DNA from: Eledone cirrhosa
Lineage: Eukaryota
Length of the DNA stretch: 64,000 nt
Direction of reading: 5' to 3'
Assembly (NCBI GenBank): GCA_964016885.1
Contig: OZ024745.1
Span: 75,454,001-75,518,000 of the forward strand
Both the position numbers and the translations under genes were made by a program. The notes under the pieces were generated by a model, which was not told the origin of the DNA, made no database searches, and worked only from the letters and a program-made list of their open reading frames with translations. Shown piece by piece: positions 3,368-31,869 of the stretch. Position 1 is the first letter of the stretch. Each line of letters starts with the position of its first letter.

Positions 3368-3588
3368 TAGAAATGAAGTAATTCCGTCGGAAAAGTCCAG
3401 GAAAAAAGAGTGCTCTATGTAGGTAACAGAGCTTAATAGTTATGTAATAAACAACATAAGGCGATTATTTCATTTACCAGTGGTTTCTTAAAAGCAAAAA
3501 AATTTTGCTTTCAATCATCAGAATGAAAAAATCCTGGTGTCTTTTAAGAAACCACTGGTAAATGAAATAATCGCCTTATGTTGTTTAT
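3368..3588 (-). mobile_element. Fold-back mini-insertion with hammerhead at 3469-3527 (minus strand)
   Basis: Minus strand TTCATT-CTGATGA-TTGAAAGCAAAA..TTTTGCTTTTAA-GAAA-CCACTGG-TA-AATGAA; inverted arm 3541-3588; same family as 25068-25318. Confidence 0.85.
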
Positions 3589-3606
3589 CTGCTTCGTAGA
3601 ATCAAG

Positions 3607-3700
3607 ACGTATCTGAGGACGTTGCGATTTTCAGAGTCAGGTTCGATCATCAAATTAATCGTGCCTGGAGCTGGTCGCCAGAGAAACGATTGTAATATGT
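3607..3700 (+). ncRNA. Type I hammerhead in a PLE-like 3' fragment (3588-3830; related copy 55420-55615, minus)
   Basis: ACGTAT-CTGAGGA-..TGCGA/TCGC..-GAAAC-GATT-GTA-ATATGT. Confidence 0.75.
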
Positions 3701-4256
3701 CCTATAAATTCCATTCGTCGCACCACTGATTCTCTTTTTTTTCTGCGATATCATACTCTGCTCTATGAGAGCATCGAGTGCTCATACAGCCTACCGCATA
3801 CGGACGCTTTAAGCATCCAACACCAATTATATATATATATATATATATATATATATATATATATATATATATATATATATATATATATATATATATATAT
3901 ATATATATATATATATATATATATTATATATATATATATTTATATATATATATATACATATATACATATATATATATAACTGGTTGACGGTTGAGAGAAA
4001 GGAGTACTCAATTCCGAAGCAGAGTTTTAATATTCATTTTATTATGGCTAAATAGAGAATCTGTTTATCACAGGTGTTGATAATCCTGTCATAAACAAGC
4101 GAAACTACAGAACAACAAGACTCACTTTTTAGCCTTTGTTTTGTTTGTTTCATTTATTAATTATATATATATATATATATATATATATATATATATATAT
4201 ATATATATATATATATATATATATATATATATATATATATATATATATATATATGC

Positions 4257-4527
4257 AAAAGTTCTATTTAAAAATTGTTGGGATACAACAAGTAAATATT
4301 TTTATAACTGATATAAAGCACTCGACAAGTTTTTGGAGTAGATAATGGATGGCTTCCAAAAATAATGGTTGCATTTTAATAGGGTACGTCAAAGCTTATT
4401 TGTAAAACTGTTATATATTGTATTTTGTCTGATGAAGGCATACCATAATTTAATTTGGTATCCCTGAAATATGTATAATGAAATAAATATGGTTTTATAA
4501 ATATAGTTTCCATTTATTAATATCGTA
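4257..4527. mobile_element. Inverted two-arm mini-insertion with hammerhead at 4423-4483; family copies at 15963-16234, 17178-17420, 31177-31560, 39640-39765
   Basis: TTTTGT-CTGATGA-..ACCA/TGGT..-GAAA-TATGTA-TA-ATGAAA; five homologous copies, each abutting (TA)n-rich tracts. Confidence 0.8.
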
Positions 4528-5427
4528 TATATATATATATATATATATATATATATATATATATATATATATATATACATACACACACACACATATATAT
4601 ATATATATGTTTATAAAACGACAAGACATTTTATAAATAATTTACATCGTTCCTGTGTCAACCACAGGATACCACATCTACGATGTATGACTTACATAGC
4701 GTTGAGTGCTCTGATTGATCTGTTACATCATGATTTACCTACCAGAACGACCAGTTCTACGCTTAGGTAATCAAAGTGACACAAATATATATATATATAT
4801 ATATATACACAATGATATTAAATAAAATATCCCTTTTGCTTATATATATATATATATATATATATATATATATATATATATATATATATATATATATATA
4901 TATATATATATATGTAAACTATATATATATATGTAAACTATATATATGTGTTTGTGCCTATATTGTATCTGTATTATTTTTGACCGTCGGTCAGTCAATG
5001 GCAACATTGAGGACCGAGTAAGTTAGATCGCAGATATAAAAGACAGCGAGAAGCGAAAACCAACCAAACAGTGAGTGTGTTCTGTTATTAATTCTGGCAA
5101 TATTACGCAAATATGACCCTCCCCAAGTATAACAATATATATATATATATATATATATATATATATACATATATATACACATATAAGTATGTGTGTATAT
5201 ATATGTACAAGTAGTGGTGTTGTAGTCGTGCAGCATATATAGTTATATATAATACAGAACTAATACCATTTCTGATTTGTACTCCATACGATATATAGAA
5301 TGGAATAATTTTATTTCATACCATTAGGTAGCTTATAGTTTTCTCCTATATAAAATTGTGGCGGGTACGACAGTCGAACAGTAATTTTATAAAGTATCCT
5401 CCACCCCATATATATATATATATATAT

Positions 5428-28055: not shown

Positions 28056-28380
28056 TATATAATCAAGAAAACCGATCTCTCTCTCTCTCTCTCTCTCTCT
28101 CTCTCTCTCTCTCTCTCTCTCTCTCTCTCTCTCTCTCTCTCTCTCTCTCTTCTCTCTCTCTCTCTCTCTCTCTCTCTCTCTCTCTCTCTATATATATATA
28201 TATATATATATATATATATAGAGAGAGAGAGAGAGAGATCGGTTTTCTTGATTATAATATATCTATATATATAAAGTTGTATTCATCTCTGCTTGTTTGT
28301 TTTTTCTTTGTTTGTTTGTTCACGAACTACTATATATATATATTATATATATATATATAGAAAGAGAGAGATAGAGAGAG

Positions 28381-28612
28381 GAGACTGAGGTTAGCTGGAC
28401 ATGCTCACCGGCATGCAGAGTTGACATTACACTCAGTGGTCCTGTGAGAGCCCCTACATGGACACACTGGAAGAGGAAGATCACGGTTAACGTATGTTGA
28501 TGCCCTAAAGACAGACACTGGTCTGTTGGAGACGCAGGACATGGCAGAGATAATGAGGGACAGAGACCGCTGGAGAGAACTCGTCCATGGATCTCGGGAA
28601 TTTTACCCGCCC
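28381..28612 (+). mobile_element. RTE-like LINE C-terminal fragment (different family)
   Basis: Hand translation RLRLAGHAHRH..VL*E..LHGHTGRGRSR. Confidence 0.6.
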
Positions 28613-28727
28613 TAGAAATATATATATATATATATATATATATATATATATATATATATATATATATATATATATATATATATATATATATATATATATA
28701 TATATATATATATATATATATATATAT

Positions 28728-29445
28728 AATAAATGTAATCTGAGCTTTTCGAATATTAATAAAAAAAAATTCGATTCGTTTACAATTATGCAAACAAGCC
28801 TCATATTTAAAGCCATATCAGTAGAATGAACCCTTCATTCTTGCTCTTGTGTTGGCATGTAAACAGAACTGCAGACACTAATGTTTCTGGGTATCACCCT
28901 TCATCAGTACAGCCCACTGTTCACTTGCCAACTGTCAGAGCTAGTGAAAATATATGCTATTTTCTAAAATATACAGTGACTGATCGGCCTGATTTGCACT
29001 TTAGCAGAGCAGCTGATCAGTCAGATCTGCATATTAGCAGATCCACTGATCAGCCAGATTTGCATATCAGCAGACTGGCCAGTCAGTTTCCTGTATACGA
29101 GCGATAAATGGCCGGCTTTGAAACATTTAAAAAAAAAAAAATGTTCGAATATTAATAATTATTTCAACTTTTGGCACAAGGCCAGCAAATACCCAGTAAA
29201 TTACTGGTACTTTATTTTATTGACCCCGTATGGATGAAAGGCAAAGTTAACCTCGGCGGGATTTGAATATTAATAATAACATTCGATTCGTTTGCAATTA
29301 TGCAAACAAGAATGAACGGTTCATTCTACTGATATGGCTTTAAATATGAGGCTTGTTTGCATAATTGCAAACGAATCGAATGTTATTAATAATCGAAAAA
29401 CTCAGATTACATTTATTGTATTCAGCCATGCAGAGAGAACATTTT
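28728..29445 (-). mobile_element. pLTR/retrozyme-like insertion with hammerhead at 28869-28912, partial tandem copy, inverted arm and nested SINE
   Basis: Minus strand CTGTA-CTGATGA-AGGGT GAT ACCCA-GAAAC-ATTAGT-GTC-TGCAG; 29321-29419 is the reverse complement of 28728-28829; SINE piece 29160-29266 flanked by GAATATTAATAAT. Confidence 0.8.
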
Positions 29446-31869
29446 ATATATATATATATATATATATATATATATATATATTTTATTTGTTTGACCCGAA
29501 TTACTTGGTCGTTTTTATGGTTGTGCGGATGATTGTTTAACCATCGTGTGTTTGGCCTTTAACGTATGTTGTAGCTCTGGTTCATCTGAATCATTGAGCG
29601 CTTGCCACACATCTCGGAAGTTGTTTTTCGTTAATTCCTAAGCCGAAATACGATTCTCGCTAATTTATATTTGTATATATATATATATATATATATATAT
29701 ATATATATATATATATATATATATATATATATATATATAATATAACTCAATGGGGTCATTTACAATTATTTTAGCTCTAAGAATCACTTCTGAGCAGTAT
29801 AAGTGACTATAACGTCAAAATGGAAAATATTTAACGTAAGATATGGGAAATAATGCAAACCCAATTAAAAGAAAATCAAGACAGAAATTTTATCCACAGA
29901 TTTTGTGAAATCCAGGGGAAAAACCAACCAATAGAGCCTTAACTCAGAATAAAATAAAGTTTAAATACTCATCCTTCAATTTGTAAAAACTACAAATGCT
30001 CTATATAGTCTTAAAAAGACTATTTCACGAAACTTTTCAGTGGGATTGGTTACGGTTGGAACCGTTCATCAGTAGAGCTCAAAAACACGATAACCAAATA
30101 TCCACTGCTAAAATGTGCCAGAAAGGGAATTTAAAAGCAGGTTAGTTCACCTCGTGCGGAATTATGAAAATAAACACACATGGAGAACATGGCTGGAGAC
30201 ATCAGAATGAGACGAATGTCTGTTTACAAGAAACAGCAGCCAAAACATTCCGAAAAAAACATTCCGAAAAAAACTCAACAAAAATGCATGGAGTTCAGCA
30301 TATAGCAATATTATGTATGCAGTTCAGCATATAGCAATATTATATATATATATATATATATATATATATATATATATCGGTTTTCTAGATTAGACATTAA
30401 ATATTTGTTCAATGAATTTGCTTGTCGCTGGATTTTTCAACCTACAAAATGTAGGCCTGTGTCAACAAGTCAATACCCCCCTTGTCTAACCTGCTTGTCA
30501 CTTCAAGACATCGGAGGTTCTAAGGTTAGGAGAATATTACGTAGTCTTCCGTCAGTTTATGATGATGTTTGGTAACTGTGGATGATGTATTTTCTATTGC
30601 ATTTGGTGCTGTCTAAGAACATGAAATAATATAACGTTCTCGAAATTGAAAATAGAGGCTGCTCACATGTTTCTACTATATTACTTAGTTATCTGATTTC
30701 ATGTTTTTCTTATATGCTTTATATATTGTGTCCAAGCATACATACATGATGGCTGCCCCATCGTTGTCGAGTATGACCATTGCATGACATTATTAATAAT
30801 TATGAATTAATGCTACTGTGAAATGCCTGTGCGTGAAGATTTTTTTTTAAAGTGAGGAAAGAAGAAAAGATCAACATCATCGATAACTACTGAGCCGCAG
30901 GTTTTATGTCGGATTTATCCCAGTTTCCTGAGTTGCCTTCTCCTAGAAGAATGCCCTGACAAAGACTAGAGGTCCTTTACTTCCAGTGGTTTAACCGCGC
31001 CGCGCGATTGGGTATCAAGCCCGATTATTTCTATGTCCCGGCGCATATCTATACATTTGCATACAAGTATATACATACATATATATATATATATATATAT
31101 GAAAACAGGGAGAAAATATATTTTTCTTCCTAATAATCGTCTCTTTCTCCCTGTTTTCATATATATATATATATATGTAAAAGTTCTATTTAAATTGTTG
31201 GGATACAACAAGCAAATATTTTTATAACTGATATAAATCACTCAACAAATAATTGGAGTAAAAATACGATATTAACAAATGGAAACTATATTTATAAAAC
31301 CATATTTATTTCATTATACATATTTCAAGGAAACCAAGTTAAATTATGGTGTGCTTTCATCAGATAAAATATAATATAGACCAGTTTTATAAATAAAACT
31401 GCTCTATAATGCACTGGGTAATTGCTGGCCTTGTGCCTAAAGTAGAAACAATTATATTTTATCTGATGAAAGCACACTATAATTTAACTTGGTGTCCTTG
31501 AAATATGTATAACGAAATAAATATGGTTTTATAAATATAGTTTCCATTTGTTAATATCGTATATATATATATATATATATATATATATACATACATACTT
31601 ACACATTTTTGGATGGCCGTTGACTTTTATGAGTTCTTCCACCCATTGTCAATACATACGGACATAAATGTATACATACATACATGCATATATACACTCA
31701 TACATATACTCACATACATACATATATACATTCATACATACACACATACATGCATATATAAACAATATATATACACTCACATACATACATATACATACAT
31801 ACACTCACATATATATACGTACATACATACAAACACATAAGGTGGAAGGAGATAATCCTTAAAATTAAG

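What the first reader, a model, noticed from the sequence alone, without database searches (positions are those of the whole stretch)
3368..31560. Fold-back insertion architecture: two 3' ends facing outward into (TA)n
Seen: islands at 2451, 3368, 5428, 14329, 17965, 24498, 25068, 25417, 28728 and 31177 (also 57940, 58590, 61600) are inverted repeats with arms of unequal length. Copies of one family have different apexes but reuse the same outer ends: GATCTTATA / CCTCCTACAT in 5428 and 24498; AATATCGTAT / AACTTTT.CAT in 4257, 15963 and 31177; TTCCTAT / CGTTAT in 14329 and 58590. Inference: (TA)n is itself palindromic, so both strands of a break could prime reverse transcription at fixed TA-microhomology sites on the RNA (twin priming), producing hairpins. 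Inverted pLTRs are known for PLEs; two conserved priming sites with a variable apex is the specific testable point.
Basis: partly seen in the sequence, partly recalled or inferred. Interest (0 to 1): 0.85.

Follow-up and report, generated by a model that had tools for sequence, protein, structure and literature searches.

The report
Penelope elements primed from both strands
These fold-back islands are end pieces of Penelope-like jumping genes sitting in (TA)n repeats, almost always with one long and one short arm, and an extra G at their centre suggests that each was likely made by copying one capped RNA twice, once from each strand of the cut target DNA.

Summary
The islands are real. They are terminal repeats (pLTRs) of Penelope-like retroelements (PLEs): Hydra-clade for families A, C, D and E; family G has a canonical-type ORF. 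The 3' ends face outward (33 of 40 close pairs). Inverted pLTRs, a one-sided tail, (TA)n targets and two RT start sites are published.

What I did not find in print:
(1) The two ends are coupled. Family C has 13,146 long+short hairpins genome-wide against at most 162 short+short and 146 long+long.
(2) The apex is not freely variable. It piles up at an initiator-like site (TT-A-GT), where a non-genomic G stands on at least one arm in 30 of 50 (E) and 20 of 50 (C) junctions, on both arms in 14 and 3. This looks like a copied cap.
(3) Target duplications of 11-17 bp (8 of 19; control 5.8%).

Best model: a dimer nicks both strands and primes two cDNAs on one capped RNA, which join head to head. 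TA microhomology alone does not fix the sites. No RNA data; raw-read support is partial.

The parts
2450..2549 (.). Family E hairpin; exception: no tail, left arm ends about 21 nt short of the usual short site
3369..3588 (.). Family B: long arm (-) 3369-3540 with hammerhead 3470-3526; right arm (+) 3541-3588, cut by a family K copy (3595-3828)
4255..4533 (.). Family D inversion: long arm (-) covers only the tail; short arm (+) 4347-4533 with hammerhead 4424-4482; arms barely overlap
5426..5842 (.). Family A (Hydra clade) hairpin: short arm (-) 5426-5603, long arm (+) 5597-5842 with 88-nt tail; hammerheads 5467-5531 (-) and 5649-5713 (+)
14328..14518 (.). Family C hairpin: short arm (-) 14328-14372, long arm (+) 14375-14518, 79-nt tail
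15960..16234 (.). Family D inversion: short arm (-) 15960-16145, long arm (+) 16150-16234 starting at the short site
17830..18333 (.). Family F hairpin: long arm (-) 17830-18150, short arm (+) 18155-18333; hammerhead-like core read by eye; parent ORF not found
24498..24921 (.). Family A hairpin: long arm (-) 24498-24749, short arm (+) 24751-24921; apex at the hotspot
25065..25318 (.). Family B hairpin: short arm (-), long arm (+) with hammerhead 25154-25209; parent ORF not found
25412..25812 (.). Family G hairpin: long arm (-) 25412-25630, short arm (+) from 25639; 40-nt tail; parent ORF of canonical PLE type
28728..29446 (.). Family H composite: short-ended arm (-), SINE piece 29157-29266, inner hairpin 29275-29387 plus tail; parent ORF not found
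31179..31567 (.). Family D hairpin: long arm (-) 31179-31396, SINE piece 31407-31456 at the apex, short arm (+) 31451-31567
58591..58748 (.). Family C: long arm (-) stops early, short arm (+) reaches the hotspot; overlap about 22 nt
61603..61797 (.). Family C hairpin, long arm (-) plus short arm (+)
57944..58216 (.). Palindrome holding a SINE piece, not flanked by (TA)n; not assigned to this architecture

Best explanation
The islands are pLTR pieces of Penelope-like retroelements with one long and one short outer end, likely made when a dimeric PLE protein nicks both strands of (TA)n about 14 bp apart and primes two cDNAs on the same capped RNA, one at each of two fixed sites that bound the tail. 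Shown: family identity, orientation, long+short coupling, apex hotspot, non-genomic G, target duplications, arm overlap classes. Inferred steps: (1) the hotspot is the Pol II start in the pLTR, and the extra G is the copied cap. (2) Priming in the 5' pLTR of the transcript gives short run-off cDNAs (the small hairpins); priming in the downstream pLTR gives the kb-long arms. (3) The short-site cDNA runs ahead. The long-site cDNA follows, displaces it, and jumps onto its free 3' end, either at the cap or earlier, down to the short site itself (the non-overlapping inversions). (4) Each cDNA then serves as the other's second-strand template. The sites are probably set by protein bound to the tail; 2-5 nt of TA pairing only sets the register.
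For: Coupling: 13,146 long+short against at most 162 and 146, where independent choice gives at most 50%. Eight families give 191 of 207 automatically; most of the 16 others were tandems, diverged tails or cut loci on reading. Orientation: 33 of 40 pairs outward. Cap signature: the native base before +1 is T in 19 of 19 E copies and T in 8, C in 1, of 9 C copies, never G. In E junctions, C..G on both arms 14, single C/G spacer 13, one arm 3, single A/T 1, G..C 0, of 50 listed out of 344 (tallied by eye). In C, 3, 12, 5 and 0 of 50 listed out of 1,109 (by eye). Untemplated G as a cap copy is established for L1 and SVA (PMC4859970). Both arms need an RNA template: the short arm reaches further 5' in 54, equal in 49, long arm further in 18, of 121 unbiased pairs, and 24 of them do not overlap. 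Short arm at the hotspot 58 of 76, long arm 37 of 76. Same RNA: arms differ by 1.3% against 4.6% between copies (A, 38 pairs) and 3.6% against 10.2% (C, 42 pairs); start-site choice agrees between arms in about 36 of 41 readable C junctions (by eye). Duplications of 11-17 bp in 8 of 19 informative pairs against 20 of 342 mismatched pairings; 0 of 10,000 permutations reach 8. In vitro, a Poseidon protein cuts and extends both strands, starts at two sites bounding the tail, and is a predicted dimer (PMC11167929).
Against: No RNA evidence for the start site or the cap. In family A the extra G is confounded by an internal repeat about 45 nt downstream, so A adds nothing to the cap claim. One E locus (listed twice) has different capped starts on its two arms, and 3 more may; this fits two RNAs. 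Arm similarity could come from gene conversion or from one dominant source, and start-site agreement from subfamily promoters. The own arm was the closest match in only 25 of 38 and 26 of 42 pairs. Stalling at the short site is modest: 15 long arms stop within -6..+19, 11 in -40..-14, 9 beyond. Raw reads gave only 3 strand-change joints (1-2 start places each) and no joint of the perfect hairpin type. The in vitro paper found no strand difference in start site and no homology to the target.
Confidence: 0.65

Rival explanations
1. Both strands are primed, but each subunit of an asymmetric dimer carries its own RNA; one always uses the short site, the other the long site.
For: Explains overlap without displacement, the 18 of 121 pairs where the long arm goes further, and the locus with two different capped starts.
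Against: Start sites agree between arms in most junctions. Arms are much more alike than copies are. It gives no reason for long arms to stop near the short site or to reach the hotspot less often (37 against 58 of 76).
Confidence: 0.15
2. One RNA is twin-primed, but the long-site cDNA covers only the tail; the short-site cDNA turns back at the cap and copies itself, then continues onto the tail cDNA.
For: Fits strict long+short pairing, one- to three-base C/G loops at the apex, the short arm reaching further or equally far (103 of 121), and the non-overlapping class.
Against: Cannot give the 18 of 121 pairs with the long arm further 5', such as L081 (a whole-unit long arm). It needs the cDNA freed from RNA; PLE RT lacks RNase H (recalled).
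Confidence: 0.12
3. Self-priming on an antisense template makes the head-to-head palindrome, as proposed for rotifer PLEs (PMC3846280).
For: Palindromic apexes are common (perfect 6-nt centre in family A).
Against: The non-genomic G sits 5' of a sense-strand initiator. Arms are not nested, and 24 of 121 do not overlap. Duplications flank both ends.
Confidence: 0.04
4. A few hairpin master copies spread as whole units (MITE-like or non-autonomous), so ends and apex are inherited.
For: Some junction types recur at many loci.
Against: More than 20 junction types among 50 E hairpins. Arm lengths run from about 10 nt to over 3 kb. Ends are unequal and duplications are long and variable.
Confidence: 0.03
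5. Assembly or long-read fold-back artefact.
For: Few joints were seen in raw reads.
Against: Fixed unequal ends, diverged arms, added bases, target duplications, and strand-change joints in Illumina reads (113 reads over 3 joints).
Confidence: 0.01

Closest known systems
Hydra-clade EN+ Penelope-like elements (Craig et al. 2021, PMC8557442)
   Same: C-terminal GIY-YIG without CCHH; DKT, CxCX5C, CxxC and CxH motifs; hammerhead in the pLTR; (TA)n target; inverted 5'-truncated copy with a tail at one end.
   Different: Tails are 56-90 nt in families A-E and I-K, against 30-40 bp. Family A is about 3.7 kb, against under 3 kb. Copy numbers are very high (23,324 exact hits of one 22-mer). In the passages I read, coupling of ends, a cap signature and stagger length are not described.
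PAc (Poseidon of Anolis) in vitro TPRT (Frangieh et al. 2024, PMC11167929)
   Same: Two internal RT start sites bound the tail near the pLTR-ORF junction; both strands are cut and extended; dimer predicted; the uncleaved hammerhead is copied.
   Different: Different clade. That work does not show that the two sites are used as a pair on one target, nor how the cDNAs join.
L1 twin priming (as summarised in PMC4859970; original paper not read)
   Same: Both target ends prime on one RNA; head-to-head inversion with small junction indels; untemplated 5' G.
   Different: In L1 the second site is variable and the arms do not overlap (recalled). Here both sites are fixed, no poly(A) is used, the event is the rule, and 97 of 121 pairs overlap.
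Non-LTR retrozymes (bioRxiv 10.64898/2026.07.22.740005)
   Same: Short, non-coding, hammerhead-bearing PLE derivatives.
   Different: Retrozymes are head-to-tail tandems. These are head-to-head products of families that still have ORF-bearing copies.

Membership tests
Hydra-clade PLE | Single ORF with RT and C-terminal GIY-YIG lacking CCHH | tested here: met
   L081 has an open 821-codon frame with YRDD, and one Cys between the IYE and YFG motifs. It is similar to the window's RT/GIY-YIG ORF at E 4e-6. Pfam itself found nothing in it.
Hydra-clade PLE | RWK, DKT, CxCX5C linker, CxxC and CxH around the conserved E and N | tested here: met
   Read from the L081 translation: RWT (variant), DKT, CNCRIKNKC, CNLC..E..N..CLH. 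Families C, D and E are linked to ORFs 36-55% like it.
Hydra-clade PLE | Hammerhead in the pLTR | tested here: inconclusive
   Met for A, B and D (descriptor). E has a variant core (read by eye). None was seen in C or G. Rfam listed none in these islands among the 150 of 332 rows shown.
Hydra-clade PLE | Insertion into (TA)n | tested here: met
Hydra-clade PLE | Phylogenetic placement in the clade | not tested
   No reference set was fetched and no tree was built. Families B, F and H have no linked ORF; G links to a canonical-type ORF.
EN+ PLE insertion architecture | Inverted 5'-truncated copy, tail at one end | tested here: met
EN+ PLE insertion architecture | Tail of 30-40 bp | tested here: not met
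   56-90 nt in eight families; 40 nt in G
L1-type twin priming | Non-overlapping arms, first primer at poly(A), variable second site | tested here: not met
   24 of 121 pairs are non-overlapping; both sites are fixed; no poly(A)
MITE / cut-and-paste DNA transposon | Equal terminal inverted repeats, constant interior, short fixed TSD | tested here: not met
   Unequal ends, variable junctions, 11-17 bp duplications
Non-LTR retrozyme | Head-to-tail units, each with a hammerhead | tested here: not met
   The islands are head-to-head. Only the separate array at 62697-64000 is tandem.

The most novel reading that the evidence does not exclude
Coupled double TPRT is the normal integration route of EN+ PLEs. 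One dimer bound to the tail primes both target ends on one capped RNA at two fixed sites, and the two first-strand cDNAs act as each other's second-strand template. This would explain the tail, the inverted pLTR, the target duplication and second-strand synthesis in one step, in at least two PLE clades.
Probability: 0.5. Interest if true: 0.8.

Novelty: new member of a known kind. Interest (0 to 1): 0.62.

Why it matters
How PLEs, the sister group of telomerase RT, make their inverted and tailed insertions is called undefined in PMC8557442, and an antisense self-priming model is in print (PMC3846280). This genome holds tens of thousands of products that set three hard constraints for any model: paired use of two start sites, a cap-like base on both arms, and a stagger of about 14 bp. 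It also holds a copy with an open reading frame for biochemistry. These hairpins are easily mis-annotated as MITEs or miRNA-like hairpins.

Tried and rejected
Rfam: the 150 rows shown of 332 were nearly all miRNA models on simple repeats, all below the gathering score; one weak hammerhead at 63055.

Pfam: no hit for the Hydra ORF.

Sequencing runs: no RNA holder listed. In one search, run X21 laid no read (no test), and X1 and X9 are contigs.

Cap test in family A: dropped, because an internal repeat can template the same bases.

TA microhomology as the site determinant: rejected.

Tail stem motif: 7 of 31 tails against a shuffle mean of 0.07. The motif was read off these same tails, so it is only a lead.

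Exceptions read: of 4 short+short loci, 3 were real and 1 was a long arm split by (TA)n; of 6 long+long loci, none was a clean pair of full long ends.

Empty versus filled sites: not tested; no related genome is held.

Earlier findings of the scan: none.

Paper searches for prior description of twin priming, head-to-head cDNA joining, cap copies or dimer-coupled priming in PLEs found none. Most subscription papers, among them the early Penelope structure papers, are not in the library. I did not open any supplements; those of PMC11167929 and PMC8557442 may bear on novelty.
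Full report
OBSERVATION. The window lies in a 3.0-Gb animal genome rich in (TA)n. Self-BLAST shows local inverted repeats at the listed places, and mapping to natural copies gives the arms. The quoted outer ends are right. Corrections: 4257 and 15963 are inversions with almost no overlap; 2451 lacks a tail; 3368 is cut by another element; 28728 is composite; 57940 is not flanked by (TA)n. 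In 1.064 Mb of contiguous DNA (window plus 200 kb around it and four 200-kb blocks) there are 140 fold-backs. Of these, 105 are flush with (TA)n on at least one side, against 2.6% of random points. 85 have one flush end and one tail, 5 are flush on both sides, 15 are flush on one side only without a tail in range, 2 have (TA)n at the centre and 33 fit neither.

IDENTITY. Family A (5428, 24498) is the 3' pLTR of an autonomous element. Locus L081 holds an open frame of 821 codons with the motifs that PMC8557442 (section on the Hydra clade, read whole; other passages by term search) gives for Hydra-clade PLEs. Pfam finds nothing in it; BLASTP links it weakly to the RT/GIY-YIG ORF in the window. 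One 22-mer of its hammerhead has 23,324 exact matches. Family C copies run on into a related ORF (3 of 22 loci; 36-40% identity). E lies about 900 nt behind one, and D is linked through its long inverted arms. G lies behind an ORF 40-43% like the window's canonical-type PLE (6 of 30 loci). B, F and H have no linked ORF. Minimal type I hammerheads with a palindromic helix III (as in PMC4209133, passages) fix the sense strand in A, B and D, and the ORFs fix it in C, E and G: the 3' ends face outward. Among the first 100 family A hits, 40 neighbours lie within 6 kb: 33 outward, 3 inward, 4 same-strand.

TWO COUPLED ENDS. Each family has a short end and a long end, 56-90 nt apart in eight families and 40 nt apart in G. 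Of 207 pairs, 191 are long+short, 12 short+short and 4 long+long by script. On reading, most of the 16 were tandems, diverged tails, internal deletions or cut loci, and about 3 are real exceptions. Some of these loci were selected for a long end. Genome-wide patterns for family C give 13,146 long+short, 162 short+short and 146 long+long, that is 97.7%. The two small numbers are upper bounds: of 10 such loci read, 3 were clean exceptions. Independent choice could not exceed 50%. The short ends match (TA)n by 3-5 nt; the long ends of A and C match by only 2, and better matches nearby are unused. Microhomology therefore does not choose the sites.

TARGET DUPLICATION. Of 120 pairs with standard ends, 19 have informative flanks. 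8 of these show a direct repeat of 11-17 bp, against 20 of 342 mismatched pairings; none of 10,000 permutations reached 8. This implies staggered nicks that leave a 3' end on each side (inference).

APEX. It is a hotspot plus a scatter. 1,706 family A hairpins have both arms at one site; others lie up to 3.7 kb upstream. Family C arms start at a sharp boundary, and only 8 of the arms counted in the contiguous DNA extend well upstream. Read depth also steps up at the family A site. In C and E the site reads TT-A-GT, which I recall as an initiator motif. The native base before the A is T in 19 of 19 E copies, and T in 8 and C in 1 of 9 C copies. Yet of 50 listed E hairpins with both arms at +1 (344 in all), 14 have C after the left arm and G before the right, 13 have a single C/G, 3 have it on one arm (two of them a local duplicate), 1 has a single A/T and none has G..C (tallied by eye). 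Of 50 listed C hairpins (1,109 in all) the counts are 3, 12, 5 and 0 (by eye). The 5 double-G hairpins held as loci are all long+short. Untemplated 5' G is taken as a cap copy in L1 and SVA (PMC4859970, passages). I infer that the hotspot is the capped start in the pLTR. No RNA run was listed to test this. Family A cannot be used here, because an internal repeat can supply the same bases.

ONE OR TWO TEMPLATES. In 121 unbiased pairs the short arm reaches further 5' in 54, equally far in 49, and the long arm further in 18; in 24 the long arm stops at or after the short site. A single cDNA folding back cannot give a partner arm that holds sequence it lacks, so both ends need RNA-templated synthesis. 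For one RNA: the short arm reaches the hotspot more often (58 against 37 of 76); arms are 3-4 times more alike than copies; and in C both arms stop at +1 (17) or both extend upstream (19) far more often than they disagree (at most 5, by eye). Against: one E locus has two different capped starts; conversion and subfamily promoters could mimic the agreement; the pile-up at the short site is modest.

RAW READS. One RAD run of the best-matching organism gave loose (TA)n ends at the short site (478 reads at two places) and three strand-change joints (96, 12 and 5 reads; 1-2 start places each), one of them at the hotspot. No perfect-hairpin joint was listed, and the Hi-C run laid nothing. An artefact is unlikely, but support from reads is partial.

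MECHANISM. A dimer nicks both strands and primes at both sites on one capped RNA. The trailing long-site cDNA displaces the leading one and jumps to its 3' end; each then templates the other's second strand (0.65). Rivals: two RNAs (0.15), U-turn of the short-site cDNA (0.12), antisense self-priming (0.04), hairpin masters (0.03), artefact (0.01).

WHAT IS KNOWN. PMC8557442 describes the inverted truncated copy, the tail often at one end only, and (TA)n targets. PMC11167929 (main text read, parts 1-2 of 4) shows two start sites bounding the tail, cutting and extension of both strands, and a predicted dimer, with no homology to the target. PMC3846280 (discussion read whole; other passages) notes an initiator-like motif in pLTRs and 8-10 bp duplications, and explains the palindromes by antisense self-priming. 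The retrozyme preprint (first fifth read) treats tandems. An octopus repeat annotation (PMC13282606, passages) does not mention these structures under the terms I searched. My searches found no report of coupled site use or cap copies in PLEs; the library lacks most subscription papers and I read no supplements.

VERDICT. The elements and their general shape are known. The strict pairing, the cap-like G and the stagger are new constraints, as far as I could search, on an open mechanism, and they are testable with an existing assay. Interest 0.62.

Noticed in passing
window 21661-23092: 1.4-kb palindrome of another element (91% between arms), flanked by (TACA)n/(TATG)n arrays; copies at 1184-1644 and 59773-60411. 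Possibly the same architecture on another microsatellite.
   Followed up: no
window 62697-64000 and 55627-55941: Tandem 467-bp units, each with a hammerhead (63068, 63535; weak Rfam HH9 hit), preceded by a 202-bp inverted arm at 100% identity: a retrozyme-like array with a PLE-type inverted 5' arm.
   Followed up: partly
window 6262-9979: Frameshifted canonical-type PLE (RVT_1 and GIY-YIG hits) with hammerhead-like motifs at 6262 and 9941.
   Followed up: partly
window 49459-54846 (-): LINE with open ORFs of 638 and 1156 codons (endonuclease-RT type by eye; clade not tested).
   Followed up: no
window 60911-61339, 43426-43679, 31407-31456, 58037-58120, 29157-29266: An abundant SINE forms tail-to-tail pairs (3' ends inward), and its pieces sit at the apex of or inside several hairpins; later insertion or template jump not resolved.
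   Followed up: no
window 436-711 and 27988-28328: Inverted duplications with (TA)n at the centre rather than at the ends; L270 has one around a family C hairpin.
   Followed up: no
tails of families A, B, C, D, I, K: A short stem motif (CTC...GAGYRC) starts within about 20 nt of the short site in 7 of 31 tails; candidate protein-binding element (found post hoc).
   Followed up: partly
L093:1695-1825: A full-length family A arm begins within about 3 nt of the predicted hammerhead cleavage site, a hint that cleaved RNA is sometimes the template.
   Followed up: no
family C (window 14375-14518): Hydra-linked pLTR with no recognisable hammerhead core but a GC-rich stem just after the inferred start site.
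   Followed up: no
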